Origin: Watersipora subatra
Lineage: Eukaryota
DNA length: 64,000 nt
NCBI RefSeq assembly: GCF_963576615.1
Contig: NC_088708.1
Location: 42,797,115 to 42,861,114, forward strand
Reading direction: 5' to 3'
Made by a program: the position numbers and the translations under genes
The notes under the pieces: model-generated
Database searches by the model: none
Seen by the model: the letters and a program-made list of their open reading frames with translations, nothing else
What the model was told of the DNA's origin: nothing
Shown here: in pieces, positions 20,441-49,007 of the stretch
Numbering within the stretch: position 1 is the first letter of the stretch
How the letters are laid out: each line of letters opens with the position of its first letter

Positions 20441-20454
20441 CTGCAAAACAAGTA

Positions 20455-27343: not shown

Positions 27344-28744
27344 CTAAAACATTAACGACAAGGTTATGCGAATCCCAATAGACCATGTTCAAAACGCCCT
27401 AGCCAAATTAACTAACTAATCAATCAACTACTAAATTAAGGGTGCTTAAGGGTATAAACATGCTTATTAATTAATTAACGAGCTCACAATTAATTTATAT
27501 GAGCTGTTTTACTCAATGGCAATATGGCAAACACAATATGGCATGAAATTGTAAATGATGAACCATCTTATAAATACCGCAACAATTTTAACGAGGACAA
27601 TACGCTTTTAAACATGTTACATTATATTACAGGGTGATAACTGAATTTCAGACTAGATGCTTTCTTCACTGTTGGAACTCAAGCTAATGCCTTAATTTTA
27701 CTTTTATGCAGCATGTTATTAATCTAGAGCATTTGTGTGGGGAATATAACTCATTGTATGAAATATGGTTCGACCAATAACCATTTTTATTTCTATGCAG
27801 TGAACGACCAGCAAGACCCACCACTTTTTCACACTAAACTATCATTATAGAAACTACCACTTTGGAAAGTTGCATCTATTTTATGAAAAAAACATTCACT
27901 TTGTAAGAGCTAATAACTCCAAAACTGAATTTGGCCTGTGATGGTTGTAAAACCTGTCTATCAATCCAAGTGTTAAAATTGTTAAATCACTTCAGGTTTC
28001 TTAGGATTAAAAGTTACAAGGTAAAAAATAGTAAAAAAAACCTGATACAAATGTAAAAGTCATGAAAAGATTATATTGTCTTGAAAACAATTGAAATATT
28101 GTGATTAATGATTATTGTATCAAAACTAAAGAATGCCAACAACTGCTGTATATTGAGAGTATGCCGATTGCTGGACTTCATTTCAATAACACGCATTGCT
28201 TATAACTACAATAATTAGCCATCATTAAGGGCCACCCAAAAGTCCAGAGATAGCCTAGGTTTTCTGTGCTCTATTACTTGCTCTAAAGATAGGGAGAGAA
28301 GGTACAAATACTATGAAGACTATGATGTCAGGATGTTTTGGGCCAAAGATTACATTTAGCGGGAAAAACTTTTACGCTTTGCATTTGTGTTAAATGCTAG
28401 CATCAAAGTGTTGCTTTGCCAAAAAATTGTTTGGACGCTAACATCGACTAGTTCAGCAGTGCAAAAGTGTTGAGATCTAAAAACATTGTGGAAGGTATTG
28501 GACAACCAGAAGATGTTTGTTCCATCGAAAGCAACAATCACAACGCAGCTATCCAAGCAAATAATGCAAATATTTTTGTTTTACATACATTAATTTTTGT
28601 TTTTGCATGTATTATAAGTATGGTTCGTTTATGTCACCTGTTCATGAATATATATTTGTGGCATTTGATAAATTATCATTACATAACTTGTAAATTTGCA
28701 GACTTATAGTATACCAGATGAATGCCTAACGTTGCCTGAATAAC

Positions 28745-29310
28745 AAGTCTTTGCAAAAAAAATTTATTTTCATTTAACGTATAACAACAGTTACCATTCT
28801 AACTTTCCAACTCCATATCATGAGAAAAGTTTTTTGTGCAATTTGAATAAATTAGGAGAAAAGTAAAACAACTGTTAAGGTTTTTAAACATGGTCAAACA
28901 ACTGTAACTTTCCAACTTCATATCATGAGGGAAATGTTTGGTGCCTGTCAAATAAAGTAAAAAACAAAATGAAACAATTATAAAAGTGTTTAAATGTAAA
29001 TGTGAAATAATTAGCAAGTAATAGCAAAATTAAGTCTGTTTTGCTACGATTACAATAAAAAATGATTTGGTAATAATACAACCAATACGAACTGAGAGAA
29101 CAAAATAAAAATTCTGAATATGTTGAATTAATAATAACAGTTCGTGCATAGAAGTGTGTGTGTATAAAAAAGGTTACTGCTGCAGCATAAGCTATTCATC
29201 AATACTTTGAATACAACGATACTGGTACCTCTCGTTATGGGTACAAATGTACAAATGAGATATCGTAGTGTCTTTGTCTGGTATTTTGTCTGACCGAACA
29301 GAGACAGAAT
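28745..29310. repeat. Left copy of a ~500-bp dispersed repeat; it is inverted relative to the copy at 46630-47115 and contains an internal ~65-bp tandem duplication
   Basis: Its reverse complement matches 46640-47100 (cgttcggtcagacaaagacag...gtaccagtgtcgagaggtacc...). ORFs 29128-29355(-) and 46627-46923(+) encode the same peptide, which shows the identity. Confidence 0.6.
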
Positions 29311-29529
29311 GTAGAGGCTATTTCTACTCGATATAATAGAAGTGTAATGGCCCACTTGAAATTGAAATGGTACATTTAAAAATACAATTTAAAAAAATAG
29401 GTAATGGTAGCAAAAAACTAGTTTTTAAACAATTTCAAAAAATAACAAATGCAAAAGGTAATATTAGTTACTAATCAAAGGTGCACATTTAGTGTGTACT
29501 TTTTGGTATATGATAAGAGCGATAGAATG

Positions 29530-29615
29530 CCAAGGACTGTATTGCTCAGTGGTTAAATGCGTGGTTTGAAATTTACCATTGCAATCTCCGTGAGTTCAAA
29601 TCCAGCATGCAGGGA
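29530..29615 (+). repeat. tRNA-derived SINE-like segment, or a degenerate tRNA pseudogene
   Basis: It has an A-box-like TGCTCAGTGGTTAAATGCG and a B-box-like GAGTTCAAATCC. The stems do not pair as in a functional tRNA. Confidence 0.3.
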
Positions 29616-30111
29616 GCTATTCATTCTAAGGTTTTAACAGCTATAACTGGACAGGCAGAGATTTGAACAGACGACCAACTGAGATCTATATATATGTCTA
29701 TAGATTATTTGATAATCTGTATACGACCAAACCAAATCGTGATATACGGCCAAACCAAATCGTGATTAATGGCCAAACCAAATCGTGATATATCTATATC
29801 ACGACCAAACACTCGCCTCGCTCGTGTTTGTGATGGCATCATTGCAGTAATCTGATCTTACAATGGATCGACACTCGTAACTCCTCTTCTAATGCACTCA
29901 AAAAGCTAGTTTTGGCTGCAAACGTATTAATGAGTGCAATGAGCTTTTATGCAACATTGGTAAATAGAGACATAAAATAAAAATAAGTCTTCAAATTTAG
30001 AATGAAATAAAAATTGAAAGTTTCAACAAATTGCAAAGCAGGACACAGATTAATCATCGCAGGTTAATTGCAAGCTATAGATATCAACTGGTAGAGACAT
30101 TTCTCGGTTTA

Positions 30112-30117
<6 letters not shown>

Positions 30118-30162
<45 letters not shown>

Positions 30163-30440
30163 CTATATTTCCCAACTAGGAGGCTTCTATCAATATATAA
30201 TCCATGTTAGGAGGCTCTGAAAAATTAGGAGGCGTCCAGGGAGCCTCCTAATTCTAGCAGTGTTTATAGTGCTTACCAACCCTATAGAAGTATTTTAAAC
30301 ATGATTCCCATAATCGCCTTATATATCTATATTCATATATATGGAAAAGAGGAGACAACTCCAACAAAAATGTGTAATTTTCTATCAATAAATTATAAAC
30401 CCTAGGAGGCTCTTATATATGGAACTAGGAGGCATATCAA
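30118..30440. repeat. (TA)20 microsatellite followed by a cluster of CTAGGAGGC motifs
   Basis: (TA)n lies at 30118-30158. About eight TAGGAGGC motifs follow, up to 30440. The motif is the reverse complement of the satellite core GCCTCCTAA. Confidence 0.8.
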
Positions 30441-31954
30441 TTTTAAAACATTCTTACTTTTAACTGTTTTGGTATCGTTTCAGTTAATAGCACAATCTAT
30501 TTAAAAACATATTGCAATAAGTTTATGACTAAGCATCAGCAAATACAAAGAATTAGCAGCTATGTCGGATACAGTCAGTTTTGCTAATATTCATGATAGC
30601 TTTATTAGATTTGAGAAATAAAGTTGTATATTAACAAACTACAATACATTACAATTTATTTGCTGACCCTCTTTATAGTTTTCAAGACTGCCATTTAAGC
30701 ACTCCCTTTTTTGCAAGGTTTCTCATTGATCTGCTCTTTTTTGTGAAAATTCACAATAATTGCACATTATGGTTTCAACTGATGTTTAAGCATGGCTGTA
30801 GTAAAAGTTTAAATAAGTCTATAATCAGTACAATTCATATTTTCGATGCCGTTGCATCCAGCCACAAAATAAATATTTTTTTGAAACTTTGCATCCAAAC
30901 GCAATACCTGAGAGATGGTTTTTTAGTCGAAGAATTGATTTTTTAAATTTATTGAAGTAAAGTGGCAAAAGTATAACCACAGTATATAACAGCTAGAGAG
31001 ATGTGGCTGTTATAATGTTGCTGTGGCTGTTAGGACTATTAGTTCTTCACTCATGTAGTCTACTAGAGCTTGGTAGCAGCAGAATGACTACATGTAAGGG
31101 AGCAAGTCACATTCGGTAAGTTGTTCATGTTATTTTAGTCAATTTACAGTTTATTTACTTGAAACATACAGTTGTAGAAAAGCAGTATAAATTTTATTTA
31201 ATATTGAAATAGGACTAGCGTGAAAAAAGTATGTTTCAATTATTATAATTTTTAAGGAATGTAGCACAGAACACGTTTGATATATTTTTTACATCCGTTT
31301 ATGTCATCCAACTGCTGATATTGTTCTGCATAGAAAAGTCAAGAAAGGTCAGCATTATATTACCAAAAAGGAAAAAATCAAAACTTTTTGTAAAGTCCTA
31401 ATTTTTGACTTTATTATTGTTACACGAATGTTCAGTTTTGTAACATCAACACAGACACGCCAGCTGACAATTAATAGTTATTTTAGTGAATCAGTTAATT
31501 CTCCAACTTTAATCTATTTTCAGTTATTATTATTATAATTTTTGATGTTTTTTTATAATGATAAGTAACGTTATTAATGTGGTTCTACCAACAGTCAAAA
31601 CTGTTATTAGAATAACATGATCATAAAGTAATTGTATTATTGTTATCATGAATAGTGAGAGTTTGCGTATTTCAGTTATGATTTTGTAAGTAATAGTAGT
31701 ACATGCATAGGCATAAGCAAGTAAGTGGGTATATGCAGCCTTTGAATTTTGAAACTTTTAGTATTTAGTTTGAATCTTGTGTAGTAATTGTGTAGTAATT
31801 AAGAGCTTAGCTGTTTTATAGAGCTTCAGTAGTAGGAGGCAGACATTCAAGTTTGCCAAAAAAAACCTAACCAGTGAACTAAAATGTGTATTTTGCATTC
31901 ATTTTGGTTTGTATATCTGTTTATGCTACTTGAATTATCTTTTCATTTTTGTAG

Positions 31955-32041
31955 AAACTTGGTAAGCATTGTTGCCAAGATGGCATATTTATCAGATGGC
32001 AGAGAGTATTAGACAAAGTTGGATGTTCTTTTCTAGAAAAG
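31955..32041 (+). CDS. Diverged copy of the Tudor-like exon-like segment (KLGKHCCQDGIFIRWQRVLDKVGCSFLEK)
   Basis: The same acceptor and donor context (tttttgtag ... GTATGT) is present. It is 29 codons with no stop, but the Tudor signature is degraded. Confidence 0.2.
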
Positions 32042-35000
32042 GTATGTTGCTAATTACACGTTGGTTTGCATAAAAAATATGTCAAAATAATCAAGGTTTC
32101 ATCTACCGAAATTTATAATATTTTTTAACATATACATAATTATAGATTACAAACTATAAAACATTATATCAGTAAGGTTGTATTTTGAAATGTAGTAAAG
32201 TTTGACGTTTTGGCAAAGTCACTATGATAAGCAAAACTTTAAATTCACCAACACAAAATATACTGTACAAAGTTTTACTGTAACTAGCAAATGTATACCT
32301 GACGTAAGAATGTAACAGCATGCCCAAAAGTGGTTTTTCTTTGTATAGTTGCAAATAATCAATGACGCTTTAGTTATAGATAACTGCTGGATGAGAAGCA
32401 TTGATGGCCCACACCAAAGACTGATTTGCAGACATCAAATTAAAGGTATGCGATATTGCAATAAGTTGCTGTAAAATAGCACATTATACATGCGAGCCAA
32501 AAATTAGTGTAATAATTTGATATAGCCATAGCTTCAGTAAGAAAAGTTGTTAATTTTTACAGGCATTGTATTATTTAAACGCTTACATAAACCATTATGC
32601 CACTTTTGTGTTCTATTCATCTATTATTGGCAGATTACATAATATAAATAGCGCAAACCAATCAAAGGAATGTAGCATAGCAAAGAGATTTAGTATTGCT
32701 CTTCTTAGTCTTTATGAGTCATGGTTGCAATTGCTGAGCAATTGCATAATTATATAAAATGAATAGTTTTCCATGGTTACTCATTACCACTTTTAGTTAC
32801 TCAGTCAACACTGAGAGTAATTATCAGATTTGAGATATCATGTTTAGAGGCAGGAGATTGACAAATATTTTGTTGGTTTTTACTCTTACCCTACCGTATG
32901 CGAATTTATGCTAAATCTATCAGCAACTGCCGTATGCACATTTTTGCGAATTTTCCAACAATTGCGTGGTCACCTAATTTTATTATCCATTAAAAACATA
33001 ACGGATGATTTTAAAACTTTGATGGTATTGTCAGTGTGGTTCGAATATTTCTCTAATAGATTAGTCTAAGATAACCAAGCAGTTTCAAATTTTTTTTTGA
33101 GAATTTCCAAAATAAAAATGGACATTTTTTGTGTAAGTTTTGTTAAGTATCGCGCAAGTCAGAAAACATATAATTACTTACATGTATGTTGATGACACTA
33201 TAGTCAATTCAAATTCAGATTTTTGTGATTACACAGATAATTAAATTAGCAACAGTGACTCTGATGATAGTGAAAATAATAGTTTTTTAAGTGTAAGGGA
33301 CATTGTAGAGCATCCGTTTTAGCTTTGTAGCGATTGTAGCTTCACATAGCGTTAGCAATGCACAAAGTGAAGGTACATTGATTTTTGCATAGCACTATAT
33401 GTTAACATTTTAGCAAAATAAAATATATTACAAAAAGTTTATAGATAAACTTTGAAGTTGAAACAAAATAGTATACATGCTTCATGTACATATCATGAAG
33501 CTAAATTGGCAATTTTCGGTGAAATGGCTGGCGGTAGGCCGGTAGCTTAGTTTGTACATGGGTGGCAGTAAAAGGGTAAAGCTATAAAAGAATTAGAGAT
33601 ACAAGTGTATGTATTTCCTTTTAAATGATTTAGTGAACTTTGATGATTCAAGACAATGAGTTTGGCGAATGATATATATATATAAGATGCTGCTGAAGTT
33701 GCGCAATTCAACTCATGGCTTTTAATTATTACCTCAAAATGTTGAAAACACGCGATAGGAAGGGCCAGAACACTACTAAAACTCATAGTTACTCAAACCT
33801 GAAATACAGTAGGTTTTATACAAATTGCTGTACAATAACAAAACTGCAAAACTATTGGTTAAAATATAAATAGCAATATATATTATTATTTTTGGCCTTC
33901 GGTATCGGGCAGCATGTATGCAGTTTGTTTGCTGATGTTAACAAAAGTTTTACTAATAAGCTACATAATTTGCTCAATTATTTGTGTCAACTTTAAAATT
34001 TAAAACAAATGTAGTGTTAGCACTTTTAGGATATACTACAAACAACGCAGAGGAACTTTTTGTGGCATATGACTTGAATTTAAAAGTTCTCTGAAAATGC
34101 AACTTGTATTTGCCCATTTTAATACTTTAAAATGTCAAAGGGAGCTCATAATGAAAGCAACGTTAATATAATTTCAAGATGCTCAAATCGGTACGGATGT
34201 TATGTTGACAAACATTAAAAGGTCACTCTGTACTATGGCTAGTAAGTTTTTACATGTATTTAGATTTTGCATTGATGTTTTCAATTAGGTAGTGTAGGAA
34301 ATCTATTTACATTAGCTAAATTACCAGCATGTGCAATACCCAGCTTTGTTTCCTATCCATCCCAAACATTTTGCCAATGCTTATAATAATTCATTGCTCT
34401 TTTCAAATCTCATTTCTGAACCAAAGGTAGTTTTAGCAGTATAAGAACATATACTTCTCTTCCTATGGGTCTACTCACTTTTCTGTAGCAGCAAAGGCCA
34501 TTGTTTTTAAAAGGTCTGTAAGAATTGTATTACTTATTTTGACTTCCATTGGTGCTCGTAGCAAATATAATTTCAGTACAATTTGCATCAATAAAGTTAT
34601 TATTACTTGTTTGTAAAGTATTTGGAGCAAAACAATATTTTATGTGCACAGCAAACATTTTTGCTGCAAGCTTACCAAAACAAAATAAAACGTTTATTTT
34701 TATGTTACATTTTAATTAAACATCATGTTCTATTCAGTTATTGCTGTCAGTACTATGCAGTTATTGCTGTCAATGTTCTTTGTGCATTCTTGGCACACTT
34801 TTATGTTAAACTTCCAATGCATTAAACACTTTAGAAATAAAGTGTCCAAACAAGGATGCATAACATGAGATTTGTCACTGGCTTGTTTTGACCTATATCT
34901 AGCACTCTTTAGCCAAAGGTGTCTAGCTTTACTAAAATATTTGGTAGTGAAATTGTACATAAATTCATTGCCTGCATACACATCAATCATGATGCCTATG

Positions 35001-36135
35001 CTCTTATTATGTGTTCTACTATTGCCTGCTTAGCTAATTCACTTTCTACTTCTCAATAGCCTCAGCCTCCGAATGAAAGCTATTGTTGTTATTCCTATTC
35101 TTTGTAACTTTATAATGAAGGAGGTTGTGGTTGGGCAGCTCATTTGCTTTTCACTCTATTAGAAATATTGCAGCACAAGTATAACTGCAGTAATAAAATC
35201 TTCACAGAATTGCATAATGTGGTCTTATTCTCCAAGGTCTTCTCACTAGCAGAAATGACCTATGTACTTATGCAATTGTGGTTTGTGCTTAAAGTGACTC
35301 ATTCTCCTAATGTGGCATGGCTTTGCTATCTTCTTGCATGCTAGTCAATTGATTAAATAGATTGTAAGAAGCAAGCCAACCTCTCATTCCTACACAACCT
35401 AAAGACTTATCACATAAGTTCAACCTTCTAGCGAGATTGTAGCCGCTAAACATTTTGCTTTTTTCACGCGTCTAGCCATTCAGGGTTTTGCAGCAGCAGA
35501 AGAACAGACTAATCATGTCACAATTGGTATATTTGTTTGTCACAATTGTTTTATATTACTTTTGCCAATTTTGTCATTGAATTAATTGTACCATATTATG
35601 GTGAAAAGGCATCATGAAAAAGTATTTTACTTCGCCTCAATACCAATGCGAAAGGTTAGACCGGTAGTGGCCATTTTTGACCTTTAGGGCGAGCCACTTT
35701 AAATACTATATCTAAGCAACTTACTCATGTCATCAAATTGCGACGGCAAACAACAATGCATAGGTTTTCGCAGCTAATTTGGATTTGGATTTTACTGCCT
35801 TAATTGCAAGATCGTAATATTGTCAAGTTAAAAAGGTCAAGAAACCCCAACTTTATAATGCTAAAAGAATGAAATTATTACTAATTTTCATAAAATGATA
35901 ACTTTGTAATTATACACAAGGGTAGCTTTGTGAGATTAACCGACACACATTAAAATAGTTATGGTAACATATAGCTCAGTAGCCAGCAATTGATGAATAT
36001 CTGTGACTCTGTCGATGCTCCTAACTTTTGTAACTTTTTAAAAAGCATTAAAATAATTATGGATGCTTTTTATTCTGATTAGTAGTGTTAGCTGATTGAT
36101 AGCACCAAACAGGCAGAATTATTAGTAGCCTATAC

Positions 36136-37280
36136 TATACTGCCCTGAGCAAGCAAAACGCTGTATCTTGATATTTGTAAATTGTTCAGCACAAGCACAA
36201 ACGCGTTTTGGTCAAGCCTGGCATCAGTATTAGCAGTATTTTAGTTGTTTTTTTTTATTTATTATGGTGAGATATCCAACAATTTTTACTGAATTTTTTT
36301 TTCGTGAAACTTTAAAATCAAAGGAGTTATTTCACTTAGGGCATTTTGTTTGCTTAAATTGACAATTTACTAAGCTGGCACTAGGCAATCAAAACGCCCT
36401 ATCACTGCAGATAGGGCCTTTTGATTGCTTAATTGGACTGGTTTCTCATTGTTAGTTTGCCACAAGACCATTTGCCATGACTGGATTATCAAAGGATTAC
36501 AAGTTTAAATTCTGATATTAACCCGCAATTAGTCAACAAAATGATATATGTTGCAATTCCTATTACTCATCCAGTCAACACATGGATTAAAACCCTGTAA
36601 TAGCCATATTTAGCTCAAAAGTTAAGAGATGATCAAAGATCTAGGTATCCTTCAAACCAGATGTCATGAAATGAAAGGAATAAGTAAAATAGTAGTTTAA
36701 AAAAGATCAAACGCTTTTATTAAAAATAATTTAAAGCAAACAACTGAGTGCAATAATTTCAGTATTTTAAAAAAGCAAAACCTTCCAATGGACATGTAAT
36801 TAAAACAAATTTTTCATCAAATCTCTGAGTCGGATCTTTAAATCGAGACTTTTGTCACTTAGATATCGTCTTGTCATAATAAATATATTATGATAAAAAA
36901 TATAGCAATAAGATTGAGCACTTAGAAGTGCACTAGCTTGTATGAGCTGCCTTGAAACAACCAAATATATATGCTTCAGTTTCGCTTCCCTTTGTTTATA
37001 TACTCTTTGATTACATAATGCTTTTCATAATGTCAAACTTTGTGTATGTTCAGGCCAATCAAAACGCTGTATCTGCAAATAGAGCGCTTTGATTGCCACT
37101 TTATGTGTGGTAAATGTGGATAGGGCGTTTTGCACATTGTGAAATGTGCTATTTCTGGTGGTCTCAGATATATGAAATTTTGAGACATGTTAGATCTCAA
37201 CCTAAATTACATTGAAGCACAAAAAAGTAAATCTTGAAAAACTTGTCAGATAGGGCGTTTTGCTTGCTTAGGGCAGTATA
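36136..37280. mobile_element. MITE-like element (~1.15 kb) with ~26-bp terminal inverted repeats and internal perfect palindromes
   Basis: The left end TATACTGCCCTGAGCAAGCAAAACGC matches the reverse complement of the right end TATACTGCCCTAAGCAAGCAAAACGC at 25 of 26. There are internal hairpins at caatcaaaacgccctatcactgcagatagggccttttgattg (36379-36420) and caatcaaaacgctgtatctgcaaatagagcgctttgattg (~37055-37095). Confidence 0.5.
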
Positions 37281-37611
37281 AAGTTGTGATAATGTATTAT
37301 TTTCATTGTAATTAACAAGTTGATGCATTTTAGTCGTAATTTGATACGGATTTAAACTAGAGGCTGAGTCATAAGTAAGTGACTGGAGTAAATGAAATCC
37401 TTTAAATTGTTGAAGCTTTAAAATCTATGTTTCAATTTTGTAGAAGAATATCGCAAGAGATAAAATATTACTGCTTCATAGAATTTTAGTAATGGGAGGT
37501 AGGGACACGGGTTTGCTGAAAAACCTAAAAACAACAGGCATCTTTTGCATCACTTTTTAATCTGCATAACATCTGTTTGGGCTATTAAAATTGTTTTGCT
37601 TATTTTGGTAG

Positions 37612-37692
37612 AAACCTGGTCACCGCATCCAAGCACTATATCCACCAGATGGAAAATGGTACGAAGCACAGCTGGACGCTTTCTTGAAGGGG
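37612..37692 (+). CDS. Exon-like segment encoding a Tudor-domain-core-like peptide (KPGHRIQALYPPDGKWYEAQLDAFLKG)
   Basis: It lies between a ttttggtag acceptor and a GTATGT donor, 27 codons with no stop. The peptide fits the Tudor signature [C/I]-A-x-Y-x-x-D-G-x-W-Y-[R/E]-A. A diverged copy lies at 31955-32041. Confidence 0.3.
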
Positions 37693-40342
37693 GTATGTTG
37701 CTGATTAACGGTTAGTTTCCACAAGAGCGTGCCACATTAATAAAAGTTTTATTTCAAAAAATTTATAAGAAATAATATTACTATAAAATCTATGTTTGAA
37801 TGCCATGGCACTGCATTTTTTAACCCTTCCAATTATAGTGGCAAAAATTGTCGATTGTGCTTCATAATATATGTTCAATCTTTATTAGCTTCAACTCTAT
37901 CTAAAACCTTTTTGTTATAGATTTTATTTTTCCAACACGTTAAAAAATAGTACTATTCAAAAAACTTAATGCATTCCTACTTCGTGCATTGCTAATGCTA
38001 TGTGAAGCTACGATCCCTTCAAATCTCAAAAAACAATGCTCTACCATGTTCCTTACTCTTACAAAAACTATTACTTTGACCACCATTGGAGTCACTATTG
38101 GAGCTGCTACTTTAATTATATGTGTAATCACTAAAATCTTAATCCGTCAGTCATCAACAATCATCAATAATGTTATCAACATAAGTAATTATCTGTTTTC
38201 AATTCTGGATGTACTTGCGAAAGCTATAATAGCACTAAATATTTCAAAAATCAGAAAGAACAAATGTTTCTTTTTATGTTGAAAAGTCCTAAACAAAAAT
38301 TTAAAATTGCTTCGTGAGTTTAGGGTAATTTTACAGGGAAACTTTTGGACAACACTGTCAATACCCTAAAAAGTCTTAAAGACTGTTAGTTATGTTGTCA
38401 ACGAATAATAAAATTAAGTTACTACGCAATTGCCAGGAAATTCGCAACATGCACATATGCCGGTCGTCCATTGATTTCGCCTAAATGCGCATGCAGCGGT
38501 GAAAGGGTTAATAAAATATTATGTAATCTCTAATTGAATCCCCATTCATTTAAACGCCCCTCTACTAGACCTGTACTATAATAGATGACGGTTAAAGATA
38601 GAACGCCGCCGTTCAAGTGAACGTTACTTCTTTTGAAAAAAACACATAAAAAACTATATAACACACAAACTAAGCTGTGATTCAGTGATAACATATACAC
38701 TGGGCGCTGAGCTTGCAAAATGCCATCGTTAACTGCTTATTCTAATGCTGTAGCATGTGCAAGAAATTTTAGCCTCAAATAGTAGTACAGATTTCATCAT
38801 ATTTGCTAAACCGTTTTTTCATATATGCCGAACTATCAAGGCCGCTTAAACAATAAAATTATTATCAGCCTGATAGAGTTATTAATTATTTCCACGGTGC
38901 TGCTTTCAAAGCTTTAACGAAAACACTGTAAAGCTTAGAAGTTAGAAAACTCGCTTCAATATGCATTGACAAAAGTATTAATTGCTATTGTTGTAACTGA
39001 GTCATTGTTAGTAAAAATTTGTCAACATTTTTCTATCCATCCTGTCCAAAATCGGATCCAAAGATCAAAGAATGTTGAAGTCGCAGTCAGCTGGATGTGG
39101 TTGTCAATTAAAGGGTGACACTCTAGTTTTCAACACTTCTAGAATAGCACTCGAATGAACATGGCCTTCAAATTAAGATTCTACCTTATGTCAATTTAGC
39201 TGTATTTCAGAATGTTATAATATTGGAGTTTTGGGTCAAGGTTAAAATAGCAAGCATAACTTTGCAAATATTGACGCAACAAGATTTTAGTTTTAAATAA
39301 GGCTCTGCTTTCATATATTTGCAAATCACTAATGCATGAATTTAAAAAAAGAACCCAAGGGTATATTTCTCTTTGTGTAGTAGCATCTAATCGAAAATGC
39401 ATTGATTTTAAATAAGTGCAGAGTGACATACATGGATTATCAACACCGAAGAGTGATTTTCAGACATCAGATTAAATGTGGGTGATGCTATGATAAGTGG
39501 CTTTAAACTAACACAATGTACTAGGGAACCAAGCGTGATTATTTTGCTGTAGCTCAAATGCAGTATAAAAAATAAAGGTGTCTAACTTTTCAAGTATTTC
39601 AGTCAAATTCGTTGCCTACATAAATGCTGACACTAGTCTTTGTGTTCTGCTGCTGTCAGGTTACAAAACATAGCTCTCCTAGTCAGAGGCATTTAGGTAT
39701 CTAGAGCAATCTAGGCATTAGTGGTTTCAATGAACACCTGAACAATGGTGTTTAACCACATTGCTTGACCCCATAGGTCAAGTATTAGCCTAATTAATGA
39801 CTCAATAAATAGCTACCCAGTCAGGTCACACTAAGCTTAGCAGCAATCGTTCTGAACACTGGCCATTGAGACTGCTCAATGAATGTTAATCCTGATCATT
39901 TCTCTAATAATTTGAAGCAAATAGAAATCCAAACTGCTCTATCGCATGCATGCAAGTGGCACACCATTTAGTTTCATAATTAGCTACTAAAGTAGTATAT
40001 AGAAGTGGTCATCAAAATACCTTCTACAGTATATGTGTGTTTTGAATAACAATACATTGGTTAAGTATTATATTACTAAATGAGAAATGACACTAACGAG
40101 CATTAATGTCCTTATTGTTCACTTGTATCTTAGAAACCATCAATTCTGTTTTGACTTGCAGCACGTAAACCAGCTTATTTAACTTTTGAATGGAGCTGAG
40201 CAATGATATGTGATTCATCAAAGCCATAGCTTATCAGATTTTTATAAATGATAATTCACATTATTTACTATTTCAGTCAGCAGAAAACGGTAAAGTGCAG
40301 AGGAAATAGCAGAATTTGACAAGTACTGGACTGAAAAATCAG

Positions 40343-40467
40343 GCAAACTGCCAACAAGATCAGTGTTGGATGCTAAACACTCAACGCTGCCTAACAGAAG
40401 TGTTACAGTGATTCGGGCTCGAGCCAACAACTTGCTAAAGAAGGCTGCGAGAAAAAATGCCAGCTGA
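40343..40467 (+). CDS. Putative terminal coding exon of an unannotated plus-strand gene (…GKLPTRSVLDAKHSTLPNRSVTVIRARANNLLKKAARKNAS*)
   Basis: An AG acceptor lies at 40341-40342 and the ORF runs to TGA at 40465-40467. An AATAAA lies at 40516-40521, ~50 nt downstream. A paralogous unit at 41691-41871 keeps the same reading frame. Confidence 0.35.
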
Positions 40468-41690
40468 ATTTTTTATGTTGTTGAACCTTCTTATTATCAT
40501 TGCGTTGTATTTGTCAATAAATGTGCTCTTTTTGAAGACTAAAAGAGACCAACTCCGCAGTAATGCACTTGTATAGTTATTTTGTATCAAGCAGTCTTAG
40601 CTATTATTTTATGTACAGAAAATGTGCATAAAACAATGACTATGATAGATAATACAATACCGACAATAGATATTATCTGTTGTACTGCACTGTACACTAT
40701 GATGTATTATTCAAGAAACAAGCTCTAAGATAAATTATAATAATTCTTTTAAAGAAAAACTAAATATAAGGAAATATGCCGCAGCAGCCAGTCTACTGAC
40801 AACTTACTGTCAAACCGACAAGCCCAAAAAATTACTTAGAACGCTGTGCTTGACTAAAAACAATCAGAAATTCACTACACAATGAGAAATATATCTTTTT
40901 GGGTCATTTTCCAAATTTAAGTGAATGTGTCTGAGTAGAATGTTCTATCAATTTCTTGACAGTTCAGGGCATTATTATTACTGGTAAAATGTGAATAATA
41001 GCACTCAGTATTACTATTGATCAATAAAACCACCCAAAGTCAAGAGATCTAAAGTTAGAAAAAATTTGGTACTGTGCTGGGTCCAGCCCGACTGATCATT
41101 GCTAACAATAAATTGCAGTAAGAAAGAAGTTTTGAAAAGCGAAAATGCCCTCAAGATAGAATGTTATTGTATTTTTATTGGCTCTCTATGTGACATTAAG
41201 TTTTTCCCTGGGTTCTACATAGGCACAATGGGCTTGTTTGGAATCTACCCAATTTATGGTGCTGTGGTATTGCGCAGGTTTTGCAACCTGACACTCCATT
41301 CCCGAGTGGGGAAATGTTTTTACTTAACGTTCTAAGAGTGGCTTAAGATGAATAGAAAGACATTGCTGTTATTGTATGTTAGATTGAGTAACTAAGTATG
41401 TTGTGCAAGTAATTCATATTATTACTGTAGATAATATGCACAGCAAGCAAAAATGTGTGTGTTTCATTTTAGCAATCACAGTAACTGAGTTGCGTCCATG
41501 CATTGTTACCAACTAATTTTTTTTAAGTTTTTGTATGCAGTGCAGCAGCGATATGTGACTGAATAAGAAACTATAACATAGACCATATTTACAAATATTG
41601 AGTTACATTATTCGTTTATATTAGTGAGCAGAAAGTTATGCAGCCTAAAAGAAAATTGAGAGTTCAAAAAGCCATGATTGGAAGATTGAG

Positions 41691-41803
41691 GCAAACTACC
41701 AAAAATGCCAGAGCTGTATACTGTTAAAAGAAATTGGTGTTTGAAAATTATAATGATGACTTATGCCCGAGCCCACAACTTACTCAAGAAGCTGCAAAAT
41801 TAA
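41691..41803 (+). CDS. Paralogous putative terminal exon (GKLPKMPELYTVKRNWCLKIIMMTYARAHNLLKKLQN*)
   Basis: An AG acceptor lies at 41689-41690 and the stop TAA at 41801-41803. An AATAAA lies at 41866-41871. The exon and its upstream ~70 nt are similar to the 40343 unit. Confidence 0.35.
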
Positions 41804-42069
41804 ACTGGCAGCAGGGTCTTCTTGTTGTTGAGGCTTTTGTAATATCGCATTAAACTTGACGTCTGAATAAATTTACTCCGTTTGGTGACTAAGCAACGAC
41901 CATTCTATGGTACTTGACTAGTTGAATTTTTTAGTATCAAGCATGGTGGCTGTTGTTGTTTTAAATACAAATTTATTGATTCCTACGTTAAAGTTTAACA
42001 TACTATACAATATGTAGGTTCTAACAACAATTATTGTTGTTTTATACAGATTGTTGTTTTATTGTACAG

Positions 42070-45000
42070 ATTATAGCAGACTCTTAGTTGATCTATAAGT
42101 GATAGCAACATCCCAAATTATATGTAAGCCATGGCACCTCTGCATTGATATGTAAGTTATAGCAACCTCCTAAATGATATATAAATAACAGCAGCTTCCT
42201 AATTACTATATAATTCATTGCAGCCTCCTAACTGATATATAAATAGTAGCTACCAACTATATAAAATTCAAATTATAGTAAACTCTTTTGTGATCTATAA
42301 GTCATAGCAACATCCTAAATTCTATGTAACCCATAGCAACCACTGCAATGATATGTAAGTTATAGCAACCTCCTAAATGATATATAAATAGCAGCAGCCA
42401 CCTAGTTAATATATAATTCATAGCAGTCTCCTAACTGATATATAAATAGTACTGTAGCTACCAACTATATGAAATTCAAATTATAGCAAACTCTCAGGCG
42501 ATCTATAAGTGATAGCAGCATCCTAAATTATATGTAACCCATAGCAGCCTCTGCAATGATATGGAAGTTATAGAAACCTCTTAAATGATATATAAATAGC
42601 AGCAGCCTCCTAATTAATATATAATTCATTGCAGCCTCCTAACTGATATATAAATAGTAGCTACCAACTATATGAAATTCAAATTATAGTAAACTCTTAT
42701 GTGATCTATAAGTCATAGCAGCATCCTAAATTCTATGTAACTCATAGCAACCTCTGCAATGATATGTAAGTTATCGCAACCTCCTAAATGATGTAAAAAT
42801 AGCAGCAGCCTCCTAATTTATATATAATTCATTGCAGCCTACTAAATGATATATAGATAATATCTATCAACTATGGAAAATTCAAATTATAGCAAGGTCT
42901 TAGGTGATCTATAAGTGATAGCAACATCCTAAATTATATGTAACCCATAGCAGCCTCTGCAATGATATGTAAGTTATAGCAACCTCCTAATTGATATATG
43001 AATAGCAGCAGCCTCCTAATTAATATATAATTCATAGCAGCCTCTTAACTGATATATAAATAGTAGCTACCAACTATATGAAATTCAAATTGTAGTAAAC
43101 TCTTATGTGATCTATAAGTCATAGCAACATCCCAAATTATGTGTAACACATGGCACCTCTGCAATGATATGTGAGTTATAGCAACCTCTTAACTGATATA
43201 TAAATAGTACTGTAGCTACCAACTATATGAAATTCAAATTATAGCAGACTCTTAGTTGATCTATAAGTGATAGCAACATCCCAAATTATGTGTAACACAT
43301 GGCACCTCTGCAATGATATGTGAGTTATAGCAACCTCTTAAATGATATATAAATAGCACCAGCTTTCTAAGTAATATATAATTCATTGCAGCCTCCTAAC
43401 TGATATATAAATAGTAGCTACCAACTATATGAAATTCAAATTGTAGTAAACTCTTATGTGATCTATAAGTCATAGCAACATCCTAAATTCTATGTAACTC
43501 ATAGCAACCTCTGCAATGATATGTAAGATATAGCAACCTCCTAAATGATATATAAATATCAGCAGCCTCCTAATTAATATATAATCCATAGCAGCCTCCT
43601 AACTGATATATAAATAATAGCTATCAACTATGGAAAATCCAAATTATAGCAAGGTCTTAGGTGATCTATAAGTGACAGCATCATCCTAAATCATATGTAA
43701 CTCATACCAGCCTCTGCAATGATATGTAAGTTATAGCAACCTCCTAAATGATATATAAATAGCAGCAGCCTCCTAATTAATATATAATTCATAGCAGCCT
43801 ACTAACTGATATATAAATAACTGCTATCAACTATGGAAAATTCAAATTATAGCAAGGTCTTAGGTGATCTAAAAGTCATAGCAACATCCTAAATTCTATG
43901 TAACCCATAGCGACCTCTGCAATAATATGTAAGTTATAGCAACCTCCTAAATGATATATAAATAGCAGCAGCCTCCTAATTAATATATAATTCATAGCAG
44001 CCTCCTAACTGATATATAAATAATAGCTATAAACTATGAAAATTCAAATTATAGCAAGGTCTTAGGTGATCTATAAGTGATAGCAACATCCTAAATTCTA
44101 TGTAACCCATAGCAACCTCTGCAATGATATGTAAGTTCTAGCAACCTCCTAAACAATATATAAATATCAGCAGCCTCCTAATTAATATATAATTCATAGC
44201 AGCCTCCTAACTGATATATAAATAATAGCTATAAACTATGAAAATTCAAATTATAGCAAGGTCTTAGGTGATCTATAAGTGATAGCATCATCCTAAATTA
44301 TATGTAACTTATAGCAGCCTCTGCAATGATATGTAAGTTATAGCAACCTCCTAAATGATATATAAATATCAGCAGCCTCCTAATTAATATGTAATTCATA
44401 GCAGTCTCCTAACTGATATAGAAATAATAGCTATCAACGATGGAAAATTCAAAATATAGCAAGGTCTTAGGTGATGTATAAGTGATAGCATCATCCTAAA
44501 TTATATGAAACTCATAGCAGCCTTTGCAATGATATGTAAGTTATAGCAACCTCCTAAATGATATATAAATATCAGCAGCCTCCTAATTAATATATAATCC
44601 ATTGCACCCTCCTAACTGATATATAAATAATTGCTATCAACTATGGAAAATTCAAATTATAGCAAGGTCTTAGGTGATCTATAAGTGATAGCATCATCCT
44701 AAATTATATGTAACTTATAGCAGCCTCTGCAATGATATGTAAGTTATAGCAACCTCCTAAATGATATATAAATATCAGCAGCCTCCTAATTAATATGTAA
44801 TTCATAGCAGTCTCCTAACTGATATAGAAATAATAGCTATCAACGATGGAAAATTCAAAATATAGCAAGGTCTTAGGTGATCTATAAGTGATAGCATCAT
44901 CCTAAATTATATGAAACTCATAGCAGCCTTTGCAATGATATGTAAGTTATAGCAACCTCCTAAATGATATATAAATATCAGCAGCCTCCTAATTAATATA

Positions 45001-45830
45001 TAATCCATTGCACCCTCCTAACTGATATATAAATAATTGCTATCAACTATGGAAAATTCAAATTATAGCAAGGTCTTAGGTGATCTATAAGTGATAGCAT
45101 CATCCTAAATTATATGTAACTTATAGCAGCCTCTGCAATGATATGTAAGTTATAGCAACCTCCTAAATGATATATAAATATCAGCAGCCTCCTAATTAAT
45201 ATGTAATTCATAGCAGTCTCCTAACTGATATAGAAATAATAGCTATCAACGATGGAAAATTCAAAATATAGCAAGGTCTTAGGTGATCTATAAGTGATAG
45301 CATCATCCTAAATTATATGAAACTCATAGCAGCCTCTGCAATGATATGTAAGTTATAGCAACCTCCTAAATGATATATAAATATCAGCAGCCTCCTAATT
45401 AATATATAATCCATTGCACCCTCCTAACTGATATATAAATAATAGCTATCAACTATGGAAAATTCAAATTATAGCAAGGTCTTAGGTGATCTATAAGTGA
45501 TAGCATCATCCTAAATTATATGTAACTCATCGCAGCCTCTGCAATGATATGTAAGTTATAGCAACCTCCTAAATGATATGTAAGTTATAGCAACCTCCTA
45601 AATGATATATAAATATCAGCTGCCTCCTAATTAATATATAATCCATAGCAGCCTCCTAACTGATATATAGATAATTGCTACCAACTATGTGAAATTCAAA
45701 TTATATCAATTTCTCAAATGATCTATAAGTTATAGCAACATACTTTATTATATGTAAATCAGAGCAGCTTCTAAAAGAAACAAGTTATAGCAAACTCCTA
45801 AATGATATAAGTTACGGCATCTTACTAAAG
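42070..45830. repeat. Satellite array with a ~203-bp monomer (202-208 bp), ~18 copies, degenerate at the 3' edge; it contains three ~40-bp subrepeats built around GCAGCCTCCTAA
   Basis: The anchor gatctataagt recurs at 42090, 42292, 42500, 42703, 42905 and onward. The variants agtGatagc and agtCatagc alternate, which suggests a ~405-bp higher-order unit. The array lies inside the BTBD terminal intron. Confidence 0.9.
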
Positions 45831-46129
45831 GGTATGTAAGCTATGCCATGCTATGTAATGTTTCCATTGTAACTATTACATAAGTTACAATGGTAACATT
45901 CTAATTTATGTGTAATTTGTAGCAATCTGCTAACTGGTAATCATTATTTTTGCTTACTCATTGAGGTATGAATTATTTTACCTTCAAATTGATATGTAAT
46001 TTACAACAACCATCTAGACATTCTCCAAGTTTTGACAGTTTTTCTAGTATGCATATATACAAAGTATGATAAGGCGATGAATATATATTGTATGATACCA
46101 TATTCTCTTAAAATTTCCATAAAAATATA

Positions 46130-46291
46130 TAATAATTAGGAGGTGAATAAATATATATATATATCTACAATGTAGATAAATTAGACCATATAGGAGGCTT
46201 ACCCATATATATTTGCGTTAACTCCTAATCCCTTATATTCCGCAACCTCCTAACTGGTATATATTTATTCAACTCCTAACTCGGAAATATG

Positions 46292-46325
<34 letters not shown>
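46130..46325. repeat. Cluster of CCTCCTAA and TAGGAGG motifs followed by a (TA)15 microsatellite, a mirror image of 30118-30440
   Basis: The motifs lie at 46130-46290 and (TA)n at 46296-46325. Confidence 0.8.
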
Positions 46326-46326
<1 letters not shown>

Positions 46327-46629
46327 TTCTCAAAGTTCGTCTTCTGTTCTTCGGTATGTCCAGCTATAGCTATTAAAATTTTGGAATTGAAATTTCGCAA
46401 TCTGCTGCACTTGAACTCACGAAGATTGCAACCGCAGTTTTGCAATAAAATTCTCTAACCATGAGACCGCGAAAGCTCTTACAATTCATCGCTCCTACAC
46501 CCAAAATAACGCACTATTTGAAACGCCATGCATTCTACTAACTCTATGAAACATGATGCTTTTTTGCTTTTTTTTATCGTGAACTTCTAATTCCGGTTTT
46601 TCGTGAAGTTCAATTACTGAATCGCGGTG

Positions 46630-47115
46630 AAGGTCAATACTTTTTATGCGAACAATTCGTTCGGTCAGACAAAGACAGTCCGATATCCCATTTTTACATT
46701 TGTACCAGTGTCGAGAGGTACCAGTGTCGTCGTAGTCAAAGCTTTGATGGATAGCTTATGCTGGAACAGTAACTTTTTATACACACACACTTCTATGCAA
46801 GAATTGTTATTATTAATTCAACATATTCAGGATTTTTATTTTGTTTTCTCAGTTCGTATTAATTGTACATATCATTACCAAATCAGCTTTTATTGTAATC
46901 GTAGCAAAACAGACTTAATTTAGCAATTACTTGCTAATTATTTCACATTTACATCGAAACTCTTTTATAGTTGTTTTATTTTGTTTCTTAACTTATTTGC
47001 CCTGCACAAAACATTTCCCTCATGATATGAAGATTAAAAGTTACAGTTGTTTGACAAAGTTAGAAAACCTTCACAGTTGTTACAAATAAATTTTCTGTGC
47101 AGACTTTTTTATTAC
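46630..47115. repeat. Right copy of the ~500-bp dispersed repeat, inverted relative to 28745-29310
   Basis: See the left copy. The two copies bracket ~17.3 kb that includes the 203-bp satellite. Confidence 0.6.
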
Positions 47116-47329
47116 CAAGGCAATGCTGGGTAGTACAGCAATGCTGGGTAGTACAGCTAGTCAATCCAAATTTATTAAGACATTTCTGACAAGCTGGAGG
47201 TAAGTTAACAGATTTAATGCATCCAAAAGGTTTAATATCGCTCCACCGAAAAAGGAGGACAAAATATAGGCAACATTCACGTCGCCCGTAAAAGGGTTAG
47301 AATTATCTTCCCAAAATTCTGAAAAGCCA

Positions 47330-47460
47330 TTTGAAAAATACAACGCCATTCTCTATTCGAACGCCAGTCTCTATTTGAACGTCACCTCCAACTGACCGCC
47401 ACTATGGAAAGGTTGAAAAATAGAGCGCCGTGGCATTTAATTAGAGGTTTTACCGTAAGT
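47330..47460. repeat. Second copy of the dispersed repeat seen at 6650-6800
   Basis: It matches 6650-6800 in reverse complement. Confidence 0.4.
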
Positions 47461-48103
47461 TAAATCTATAGTTTATGTTAGGTTACATAGCATAGCGTCA
47501 TAAAAGAGTAGCGTACCAAACGTGTTGCTGTCAAGTCGCTCTATCACAGTCGATAACCGCAACCATCTGCCTTGAAGGAAAGAATTCCGCACCGCACATA
47601 ATAATGTTCCATTGTATTGCAAATCATAACCACTAGATAGATATTTGTTAGTTTGGTGAACTAGAACAATTAAAAATACGTTTTCCATCATAAGACCTTG
47701 TTTTTAAACAGCTTTTTAGAGGATGGGAACGGATTAATTTGTATTTAGATATTTTTTAAAGGAAAAATTGATTTGAGCTATGAGAGAATTGATGTACAAG
47801 CACGGTCCCGGAACACCTTAAGCTTGTATGTCGGGGTATGACTGTATACAACTTTTTTAAAAATGGGATTCTAGTCAAAGATTTTTAATAAACAGAGTGG
47901 AGGTCACAAAATAAAGGTAATCTATGACAGAAGCGAGTTAAGTGGCACTTACATGCTTATTTTGATGATGCTAAAGAATATAATACCCTCTACTATCAAG
48001 AAAAATTACATTAGTTATTTAAAAGAAATTAAAATACTGTTTTCCAATTGCCTGCTATCACTAAACTTTAGCTAATAGAACATGTCAAAAGAGATATACA
48101 GAC

Positions 48104-48250
48104 CTTGAGAGTTATGGCTGCAATGTAGTGAACGCAGGGGAGTATTTCAACAGGCTCTTTGAACATCAATCGGAATGTTGAGCTGCTTCCATCGCATGAG
48201 AAAGATGCGTCTGTTGAGCCCAGTACCCTCTGTGTGTCAGCGCTCAGAAT
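48104..48250 (-). CDS. BTBD6: BTBD3/6 exon 4, PHR (ILSADTQRVLGSTDASFSCDGSSSTFRLMFKEPVEILPCVHYIAAITLK)
   Basis: It matches [49 protein letters not shown]. It is 49 codons between a cacacag acceptor and a GTCTGT donor. Confidence 0.8.
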
Positions 48251-49007
48251 CTGTGTGAAAGTGAGAAGAAAATAATGTTTTAATAAACCCTGCAACAGAT
48301 TTCTGGTAAGGTCTTTGGAGGATAATTCAGCTCCAAGGTGTGAATTGGTAACAAAAACATCATAGTCGAATAAGAAGAGAATGATGCATAACTATTGACA
48401 ATATTGACCTTGAAGGACTACAATGTGAACTCACCAAACTTACACCGATATGAATAGAACAGTAAACCATTACCTGCGGAGAGATTCTTTAGTAAATTAA
48501 ACATATATATTATATCTATATCTTATATTACATTCTTATTGGTCAAGTTGATTTTGAGGATATTTGTAGCTTAAAAAGGCTAATATGTACGCTGAAGTGA
48601 GTACAGTAAAATGTTTACCAAAAAATGACAGAAAGCATGACAAGAAAATATGAGAAAATATAAAGAATGTGCAACAGGAGCATAAACGCATAAAATACAC
48701 AGAAGAGTAAAGATGAGAAAGAAGGAAAATACCGGCTTAACAAATGGAAGGAGTTTTATCAAAAACATAACAAGTGCCTTGTAGTGAATAGTGTATGGCA
48801 CGTGTTTCTTTGGTAAACCAACTGGCTGCTGAATGGTGTGTTACGTGTCTACAGAAATATCTTAAAATAGACTATAATTTTTCAAGTAAGGCATCAAGTT
48901 TCAATGTAATCAGGTTTCCTCAAAATTTTCAACACTGATATAATTACCATAATTAGGGTGTAATTCTAATTTGCATTGACATACATGAGTAAAAGAAAAA
49001 GCTATAC

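What the first reader, a model, noticed from the sequence alone, without database searches (positions are those of the whole stretch)
42070..45830. ~203-bp satellite (~18 monomers, GCAGCCTCCTAA subrepeats, alternating G/C variants suggesting a dimeric higher-order repeat) embedded in a gene intron
The monomer length is in the nucleosomal range and the variants alternate, which is typical of heterochromatic or pericentromeric satellites. Here the array sits inside an intron of a conserved gene. The internal ~40-bp subrepeats all contain CCTCCTAA, and the same core seeds the flanking motif clusters at 30160-30440 and 46130-46290. This suggests the satellite was born locally from a short motif.
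Basis: seen in the sequence. Interest (0 to 1): 0.55.

Follow-up and report, generated by a model that had tools for sequence, protein, structure and literature searches.

The report
Layered tandem repeat in bryozoan intron
A 3.8-kb run of head-to-tail 203-bp repeats, each built from seven 29-bp units, sits in a greatly enlarged intron of a bryozoan BTBD1-like gene, next to one arm of a long inverted repeat; it is real but an ordinary kind of repetitive DNA with no sign of function.

Summary
TRF finds a 203-bp array at 42070-45641 (about 18 monomers), trailing into degenerate copies up to about 46016. Two details need correcting. The subrepeat is 29 bp, not about 40 bp (203 = 7 x 29, in register), and only 3 of the 7 units carry the exact CCTCCTAA core. 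A 406-bp dimeric higher-order repeat is clear in m12-m17 (99.6% identity at lag 2, 94.1% at lag 1). An older A/B alternation marks m1-m8.

The window is Watersipora subatra chromosome 1. The array lies in the last intron (27344-48103, GT..AG) of a BTBD1-like gene on the minus strand. The same intron is 136 bp in the closest available homologue.

The two "flanking motif clusters" are not independent seeds. They are homologous inner ends of a long inverted repeat (28725-30231 against 47130-46222), each placed just inside a (TA)n tract. The array continues the right-hand cluster in the same orientation.

Best reading: a non-coding, foldback-like repeat block enlarged the intron, and one arm's motif units later expanded in place in steps, 29 to 203 to 406 bp. 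Genome-wide copy number could not be tested. This is a new example of a known kind, of low to moderate interest.

The parts
42070..45699 (+). Core tandem array: 18 monomers of about 203 bp, each made of seven 29-bp units (nnnATAGCAnCCTCCTAAnTGATATATAA). The C-rich strand is written. The host gene is on the opposite strand.
   Evidence: TRF; monomer alignment and identity matrix; consensus and unit split; profile hits.
44250..45467 (+). Young 406-bp dimeric higher-order repeat, three copies (m12-m17).
   Evidence: m12, m14 and m16 are 100% identical. m13 and m15 are 100% identical. Lag-2 identity is 99.6% against 94.1% at lag 1.
42070..43642 (+). Older, more diverged part (m1-m8, 85-94% identical) with A/B alternation at diagnostic sites. 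It includes the 149-bp monomer m6 (43089-43237), which lacks 58 bp, that is 2 x 29.
45700..46016 (+). Decaying right edge: a degenerate monomer (about 62% identity) followed by degenerate 29-bp units.
   Evidence: m19; nhmmer hits at 45701-45809 (E 1.8e-15), 45806-45939 (E 1.8e-8) and 45988-46016 (E 1.8, marginal).
46222..46290 (-). Right inner end of the inverted repeat: ATATTTCC followed by three TTAGGAG(G) units, read inward on the minus strand. The wider motif cluster spans 46130-46290.
   Evidence: Local alignment with 30165-30231 scores 42, against 20.6 +/- 2.8 (maximum 36) for shuffles; exact motif hits; nhmmer hit at 46242-46266, E 0.053.
46294..46325 (.). (TA)16 tract inside the right arm.
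   Evidence: TRF.
46307..47130 (-). Right arm of the long inverted repeat (outer part).
   Evidence: 28867-29705 against 47081-46307: 71% over 851 nt, E 6e-132. 28725-28885 against 47130-46957. The sub-stretch 28867-29280 against 47081-46666 is 87% identical.
28725..29705 (+). Left arm of the long inverted repeat (outer part).
30110..30159 (.). (TA)25 tract inside the left arm.
   Evidence: TRF.
30165..30440 (+). Left inner end of the inverted repeat (30165-30231), followed by a looser cluster of TTAGGAGG / CTAGGAGG units. There is no tandem array on this side.
   Evidence: nhmmer hit at 30166-30218(-), E 0.023.
28389..47457 (.). 19-kb composite repeat block. Its end pieces L (28389-28713), M (29836-30110) and R (47171-47457) lie next to each other in a short third copy at 6689-7602 (minus orientation).
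   Evidence: 6938-7225 against 30110-29836 (77%, E 3e-56). 7236-7602 against 28713-28389 (67%, E 2e-40). 6744-6925 against 47352-47171 (74%, E 8e-33). 6689-6742 against 47457-47404.
27344..48103 (-). Last intron (20,760 nt, GT..AG) of the BTBD1-like gene. The flanking exons are 48104-48253 and 27188-27343.
   Evidence: tblastn of P0001; splice sites read directly.

Best explanation
The array is non-coding passenger DNA. It is a three-level tandem repeat (29-bp unit, then a 203-bp heptamer, then a 406-bp dimer) that expanded in place from a small cluster of CCTCCTAA-type units.

**Where the cluster came from (inferred).** The cluster is the inner end of one arm of a long, foldback-like inverted repeat with no coding capacity. 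This block accounts for most of the enlargement of the last intron of the W. subatra BTBD1-like gene.

**How the array grew (inferred).** Growth was by out-of-register exchange or replication slippage, first between 29-bp units, then between 203-bp monomers, and most recently between 406-bp dimers. The whole array is transcribed as part of the intron and spliced out.

**What is shown.** The nesting, the higher-order repeat, the inverted-repeat context, the intron position, and the small size of the same intron in a homologue.

**What is inferred.** The order of events, the transposon origin of the block, and neutrality.
For: - **Nesting.** Seven in-register 29-bp units per monomer have mean identity 0.67, against 0.22-0.35 when slid. 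TRF finds period 29 across the whole array.
- **Length variants are multiples of 29.** m18 is +29 bp. m6 lacks 58 bp. This is the footprint of unequal exchange between subunits.
- **Recent amplification.** 406-bp copies are 99-100% identical, while the two monomer types differ by 6%. The arms of the inverted repeat are only 71-87% identical. So the array was homogenised after the arms diverged.
- **Polarity.** The right edge decays through degenerate monomers and units towards the motif cluster and the (TA)16 tract. The units are in the same orientation as the cluster.
- **Homologous clusters.** Both clusters lie just inside a (TA)n tract, with three TTAGGAG units at matching spacing. Only one arm carries an array.
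- **No coding signal.** No ORF of 55 aa or more lies in the array. Only short stop-to-stop frames lie elsewhere in the intron, with no credible Pfam hit. There are no tRNA or Rfam matches.
- **Intron size.** The intron is 20,760 nt, against 0.75-4 kb for the gene's other introns. The same intron position in the closest homologue on record is 136 bp, with no monomer or intron similarity.
- **One bounded block.** L, M and R pieces that lie next to each other in a 0.9-kb copy at 6689-7602 bracket the 19-kb block in the same order.
Against: - No target-site duplication or clean termini could be defined. L and R are not inverted copies of each other. The left arm carries a 400-bp piece (29706-30109) that the right arm lacks. 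The block is therefore not demonstrated to be a transposon and may be a nest of several elements.
- Only one arm has the array, unlike classical foldback elements.
- The left boundary of the array (42069/42070) is abrupt and has no homologue beside the left-arm cluster. Part of the history, such as a deletion or a further insertion, is missing.
- Genome-wide copy number is unknown. If 203-bp monomers are common elsewhere, 'expanded in place' would be wrong.
- The homologue with the 136-bp intron comes from unidentified metagenome contigs (68% protein identity). It dates the expansion only loosely.
Confidence: 0.6

Rival explanations
1. The 203-bp array was not born here. It is the internal tandem-repeat module of a mobile, non-autonomous DNA element, either Helentron/HINE-like or Tetris-like. 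That element carries such arrays to many loci, and this is one inserted copy.
For: - Read on the minus strand, the order is: left body, then the (TA)16 microsatellite, then a variable spacer of about 280-350 bp, then the tandem array, then a short flank with an 8-bp-stem hairpin. This is the layout described for Cg_HINE elements.
- A second arm with the same body, (TA)n and motif cluster exists.
- A related short copy lies 21 kb away.
Against: - No 11-12-bp subterminal inverted repeats were found between the presumed ends.
- The hairpin is not significant (z = -1.78; 10 of 200 shuffles fold as well).
- The sequence beyond the array has no counterpart next to the other arm's cluster.
- No monomer occurs elsewhere in the 64 kb.
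- The flanks here are kb-sized, not 50-100 bp.
Confidence: 0.25
2. It is an outlying piece of a major heterochromatic or (peri)centromeric satellite of W. subatra that became lodged in a euchromatic intron.
For: - The monomer length is in the nucleosomal range, and a higher-order repeat is present.
- The genome note says some centromeric repeats could not be placed. Their sequence is not given.
Against: - The array is only 3.8 kb and lies between the exons of an intact gene.
- It grades into degenerate 29-bp units and a homologous motif cluster. This ties its origin to the local inverted repeat.
- The window holds many other short-period arrays, so tandem repeats are 10.7% of it. This one is the largest of a continuum.
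Confidence: 0.07
3. The array has a function for its host gene. For example, the roughly 45 UUAGGAGG words in the pre-mRNA might bind splicing factors that help process a 20-kb intron, or the array might position nucleosomes.
For: Only that the sense transcript would carry the G-rich UUAGGAGG words at a regular spacing. This is an inference with no test behind it.
Against: - The homologue has a 136-bp intron with nothing similar.
- Monomers differ by up to 15%, and length variants are tolerated.
- There is no RNA-family match.
Confidence: 0.05
4. The 100%-identical 406-bp copies are an assembly artefact, with the array mis-expanded or collapsed.
For: Perfect repeats are the hardest sequence to assemble.
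Against: - The assembly is from PacBio HiFi reads at 39x with QV 63.
- Mean read length is about 6 kb (13.3 Gb from 2.2 M reads), which exceeds the 1.2-kb identical stretch and the 3.8-kb array.
- The older monomers carry many unique substitutions.
Confidence: 0.03

Closest known systems
Tetris / foldback elements of Drosophila virilis and their TIR-220 repeats (PMC4079207)
   Same: - Non-coding element with long inverted arms: an outer unique domain, then tandem repeats of about 200 bp further in, and a variable middle domain.
- Repeat number differs between arms and copies.
- The internal repeats expand into kb-size satellite-like arrays.
- Short deletion derivatives exist (DAIBAM there; the 0.9-kb L-M-R copy here).
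   Different: - Here only one arm has an array.
- No 8-10-bp target duplication or matching termini were found.
- A (TA)n tract lies within each arm.
- The middle is 11.6 kb.
- There is no evidence of mobility, and no sequence similarity was tested or expected.
Cg_HINE, Helentron-derived non-autonomous elements carrying satellite-like arrays in the oyster Crassostrea gigas (PMC7492417)
   Same: - The order is left flank, microsatellite, variable spacer (10-500 bp), tandem array, short right flank.
- The arrays are short and dispersed in gene-rich DNA of a lophotrochozoan.
   Different: - The defining subterminal inverted repeats were not found, and the 3' palindrome is not significant.
- The flanks here are kb-sized and form a long inverted repeat.
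- The microsatellite is (TA)n rather than 3-8-nt motifs.
Euchromatic satellite-like tandem repeat families such as Cast1-Cast9 of Tribolium castaneum (PMC4675708)
   Same: - Arrays with satellite-like monomer lengths (one or two nucleosomes) lie in euchromatic arms, some in introns.
   Different: - Those are abundant families, about 4.3% of the genome. Abundance here is unknown.
- The monomer here is 203 bp, against about 170 or 340 bp.
Classical hierarchical satellites: mouse major satellite (234 bp built from shorter sub-repeats) and dimeric alpha-satellite higher-order repeats (my own knowledge, not checked here)
   Same: - Nested periodicities are produced by successive rounds of unequal exchange.
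- Higher-order copies are far more alike than the neighbouring monomers within them.
   Different: - Those form megabase centromeric or pericentromeric arrays. This one is 3.8 kb inside an intron, with its presumed seed still visible alongside.

Membership tests
Satellite DNA in the strict sense | Head-to-tail monomers of about 150-400 bp with high mutual identity | tested here: met
   18 monomers of about 203 bp, 85-100% identical.
Satellite DNA in the strict sense | Higher-order repeat structure (optional but typical) | tested here: met
   406-bp dimer, 99.6% identity at lag 2 against 94.1% at lag 1.
Satellite DNA in the strict sense | Long arrays and high genomic abundance | not testable with these tools
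   There is one 3.8-kb array in the window and no other copy in 64 kb. The metagenome and viral scans found nothing, and those collections do not represent this genome.
Satellite DNA in the strict sense | Heterochromatic or (peri)centromeric location | tested here: inconclusive
   The array lies in an intron of an intact conserved gene, with other genes within 64 kb. Its position relative to the centromere of chromosome 1 is unknown.
Foldback / Tetris-like DNA transposon | Long terminal inverted repeats | tested here: met
   28725-30231 against 47130-46222, 71-87% identical, E down to 6e-132. The left arm has a 400-bp extra piece.
Foldback / Tetris-like DNA transposon | Tandem repeats forming part of the inverted arms | tested here: inconclusive
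   The right arm continues into the 203-bp array. The left arm has only about 6 loose motif units.
Foldback / Tetris-like DNA transposon | Target-site duplication (8-10 bp) at defined termini | tested here: inconclusive
   The homology boundaries are diffuse. No convincing direct repeat was seen on reading the ends.
Foldback / Tetris-like DNA transposon | Multiple copies or deletion derivatives in the genome | tested here: inconclusive
   There is one short L-M-R copy at 6689-7602 in the same order. The rest of the genome was not available.
Helentron-derived HINE | Left flank ending in a microsatellite, then a variable spacer, then central tandem repeats | tested here: met
   (TA)16 at 46294-46325, a spacer of about 280-350 bp, then the array, read on the minus strand. 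The definition is taken from PMC7492417.
Helentron-derived HINE | 11-12-bp 5' and 3' subterminal inverted repeats | tested here: not met
   No shared inverted word of 8 nt or more lies between 41950-42075 and 47380-47500, or between 41950-42075 and 46290-46420.
Helentron-derived HINE | 3' palindrome able to form a stem-loop | tested here: inconclusive
   An 8-bp stem (AACAACAA / TTGTTGTT) lies at about 42013-42031. The fold z-score is only -1.78.
Helentron-derived HINE | Right flank conserved among copies | tested here: not met
   The array's far flank (41700-42069) has no counterpart beside the other arm's cluster.

The most novel reading that the evidence does not exclude
This locus may catch a satellite at birth in a phylum where, as far as the held literature shows, no satellite DNA has been described. 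Under this reading, a foldback-like non-coding transposon of Watersipora carries short CCTCCTAA-type units at the inner ends of its arms. One arm has just stepped from a 29-bp minisatellite to a nucleosome-sized 203-bp monomer and then to a 406-bp higher-order repeat. The same family would be seeding 203-bp arrays, possibly including the unplaced centromeric repeats, elsewhere in the genome.
Probability: 0.2. Interest if true: 0.45.

Novelty: new member of a known kind. Interest (0 to 1): 0.25.

Why it matters
The locus is a clean worked example of two things. First, it shows how a short motif cluster becomes a nucleosome-sized repeat with higher-order structure, with every intermediate stage still readable. 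Second, it shows how repeat blocks can inflate one intron about 150-fold. Bryozoan repeats are essentially undescribed, so the monomer consensus is a useful probe for surveying the W. subatra assembly. It does not challenge current ideas about satellite DNA.

Tried and rejected
- **Copies in public collections.** I scanned for monomer words twice in metagenome contigs and once in viral contigs. All three scans gave 0 hits. These collections do not represent this genome, so the negative says nothing about abundance.
- **Protein look-up route.** The exact W. subatra protein is not in the contig index, so neighbouring assembly sequence could not be fetched.
- **tRNA or SINE origin of the arms.** A-box- and B-box-like words at 29540-29610 caught my eye. 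ARAGORN and Rfam, including a permissive local search, found nothing. This is kept only as a passing remark.
- **Coding remnants in the intron.** The ten longest stop-to-stop frames gave no credible Pfam hit. A sub-threshold Ribosomal_L27e hit was not confirmed by tblastn.
- **HINE or Helentron membership.** Subterminal repeats are absent and the hairpin is not significant.
- **Two independent inverted insertions of one element.** I rejected this as the simplest model. The short copy at 6689-7602 joins L, M and R in the same order and orientation as the outer ends of the 19-kb block.
- **Literature.** No paper on bryozoan satellite DNA and no paper containing the motif words was found.
- I chose not to spend a large protein-database search on the arms' spurious ORFs. 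This species' unannotated ORFs appear not to be in that collection: the P0001 cluster has a single member.
Full report
**Observation.** TRF reports a 203-bp period at 42070-43207 and 43178-45641 (87-92% matches, best score 4060). It also reports a 29-bp period across 42071-45809. Anchoring on a conserved word splits the region into 18 monomers plus a degenerate 19th. Fifteen monomers are 202-203 bp long. The exceptions are m2 at 208 bp, m6 at 149 bp and m18 at 232 bp. A profile built from the good monomers matches continuously from 42070 to 45939, and marginally to 46016. Elsewhere in the 64 kb it gives only two borderline hits, at 30166-30218 (minus strand, E 0.023) and 46242-46266 (E 0.053). 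The array is therefore real, at the stated coordinates, and far beyond chance.

**Internal anatomy.** The 203-bp consensus cuts exactly into seven in-register 29-bp units of the form nnnATAGCAnCCTCCTAAnTGATATATAA.
- Mean identity between units is 0.67, against 0.22-0.35 when one partner is slid.
- Only units 4-6 carry the exact CCTCCTAA core, at a spacing of 29, 29, 145.
- The two large length variants are multiples of the unit. m18 has one extra unit (+29). m6 lacks two units (-58). This is what out-of-register exchange between subunits would produce.

A third level sits on top of the 203-bp monomer. m12, m14 and m16 are identical to each other, and m13 and m15 are identical to each other, with m17 at 99%. 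In m12-m17, identity is 99.6% at lag 2 and 94.1% at lag 1. That is a 406-bp dimer in three copies at 44250-45467. They are older, at 85-94% identity. The right edge decays gradually, whereas the left edge at 42069/42070 is abrupt.

**Host and gene.** A 424-aa ORF at 55077-56351 (minus strand) is 100% identical to the BTB/POZ domain-containing protein 1-like of the bryozoan Watersipora subatra, on a 79.35-Mb record. That record is chromosome 1 of the HiFi assembly tzWatSuba1.1. tblastn places the five coding exons on the minus strand at these positions:

| Exon | Coordinates |
|---|---|
| 1 | 56342-55083 |
| 2 | 53314-53120 |
| 3 | 49097-49005 |
| 4 | 48253-48104 |
| 5 | 27343-27188 |

The last intron, 27344-48103, has GT and AG ends and is 20,760 nt long. 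The other introns are 0.75-4 kb.

The closest homologue on record (P0018, 68% identity, from unidentified metagenome contigs) has an intron at the same codon, but it is 136 bp long. It shows no similarity to the monomer or to the W. subatra intron.

**Context: a long inverted repeat.** Self-comparison shows that 28725-29705 and 47130-46307 are inverted copies. They are 71% identical over 851 nt (E 6e-132), with an 87% stretch over 418 nt.
- Each arm then carries a (TA)n tract, at 30110-30159 and 46294-46325.
- Just inside each tract lies a roughly 67-bp homologous segment, ATATTTCC followed by three TTAGGAG units. The pair 30165-30231 against 46290-46222 scores 42, against 20.6 +/- 2.8 for shuffles.
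They are homologous inverted copies, not independent local seeds.
- On the right arm the units continue, in the same orientation, through degenerate 29-bp units into the array. On the left arm there are only about six loose units.
- The left arm also has a 400-bp piece (29706-30109) that the right arm lacks.

A third, short copy at 6689-7602 joins three pieces. They match 28389-28713 (L), 29836-30110 (M) and 47171-47457 (R), in the same order and orientation as on the plus strand of the window. The 19-kb span 28389-47457, which is 92% of the intron, therefore behaves as one bounded composite block with a short deletion-type relative. It does not behave as two unrelated insertions.

The block has no coding signal.
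- No ORF of 55 aa or more lies in the array.
- Elsewhere in the intron there are only short frames with no credible domain hit.
- There is no tRNA or Rfam match.

**Most likely history and mechanism.** The steps below are inferred from the anatomy.
1. A non-coding, foldback-like repeat block came to occupy the last intron.
2. Its arms diverged to 71-87% identity.
3. On one arm, the 22-30-bp-spaced motif units became a 29-bp minisatellite.
4. A seven-unit block was then amplified as a 203-bp monomer.
5. Most recently, a 406-bp dimer was amplified three times, giving the 99-100% identical copies.

Each step is ordinary unequal exchange or replication slippage. The array is transcribed within the intron and removed by splicing, and nothing suggests a function. 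I put this reading at 0.6.

**Rivals.**
- The array may have arrived ready-made inside a mobile carrier (0.25). On the minus strand the order microsatellite, spacer, array, short flank matches oyster Cg_HINE elements. However, the defining subterminal repeats are absent, the hairpin is not significant, and the far flank is not shared with the other arm.
- An outlier of a major centromeric satellite (0.07).
- A function for the host gene (0.05).
- An assembly artefact (0.03).

The last three have little support. See the rival entries for details.

**Comparison with known systems.** The architecture most resembles Tetris, a foldback element of Drosophila virilis. Its long inverted arms contain approximately 220-bp tandem repeats that expand into satellite-like arrays, and it has a short deletion relative, DAIBAM. 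Membership is not shown here: one arm lacks the array, and no termini or target duplications were found. Euchromatic and intronic satellite-like families are also well documented in Tribolium and oysters. No paper on bryozoan satellite DNA was found in the held library.

**Limits.** It could not be answered, because the searchable DNA collections do not hold this genome. The transposon class of the block is also unresolved.

**Verdict.** This is a real, neatly layered intronic tandem repeat tied to a long inverted repeat. It is a new example of a known kind, with interest 0.25.

Noticed in passing
window 27344-48103, against L001 13429-13564: The last intron of the BTBD1-like gene is 20,760 nt here but 136 bp at the same codon in the closest homologue on record (unidentified metagenome contigs). 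That is roughly a 150-fold difference, nearly all due to the 19-kb repeat block.
   Followed up: yes
window 23431-25575 (minus strand): Frameshifted remnants of a hAT-type transposase lie between the BTBD1-like gene and an ankyrin-repeat gene. The BED zinc finger and hAT dimerisation hits score just under the Pfam cut-offs.
   Followed up: partly
window 8255-8698, 10996-11305, 16473-16905, 18791-19394, 1504-1718: The window is 10.7% tandem repeats. There are several very homogeneous minisatellites: 21 bp x21 at 98%, 39 bp x11 at 99%, and 97 bp x6 at 96%. The 97-bp unit itself looks like a dimer of about 47 + 50 bp. Stepwise doubling may be common in this genome.
   Followed up: partly
window 32898-33457 and 37889-38492: A second inverted-repeat pair (71% over about 600 nt, 4.4 kb apart) is nested in the middle of the same intron. 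It has no coding signal.
   Followed up: no
window 49259-49958 and 50535-51245; 51743-51897 and 52446-52606: A direct repeat (80% over 726 nt) and a short inverted repeat (86%) lie inside intron 2 of the same gene.
   Followed up: no
window 29540-29610 and 46400-46500 (minus strand): Words resembling polymerase III A and B boxes (TTGCTCAGTGG ... GAGTTCAAATCC) occur in both arms, hinting at a tRNA-derived SINE component. ARAGORN and Rfam found nothing, so this rests on my reading alone.
   Followed up: partly
window 6689-8001: The short L-M-R copy has clusters of a 17-18-bp motif of the GCGCCAC..TATTTGA type at both sides (6689-6760 and 7863-8001). The same motif occurs at the R end of the big block (47342-47457).
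   Followed up: no
window 20246-20629 (minus strand): An ankyrin-repeat exon of a neighbouring gene is directly abutted by a 21/49/56-bp tandem repeat. The mechanical ORF reads through that repeat.
   Followed up: no
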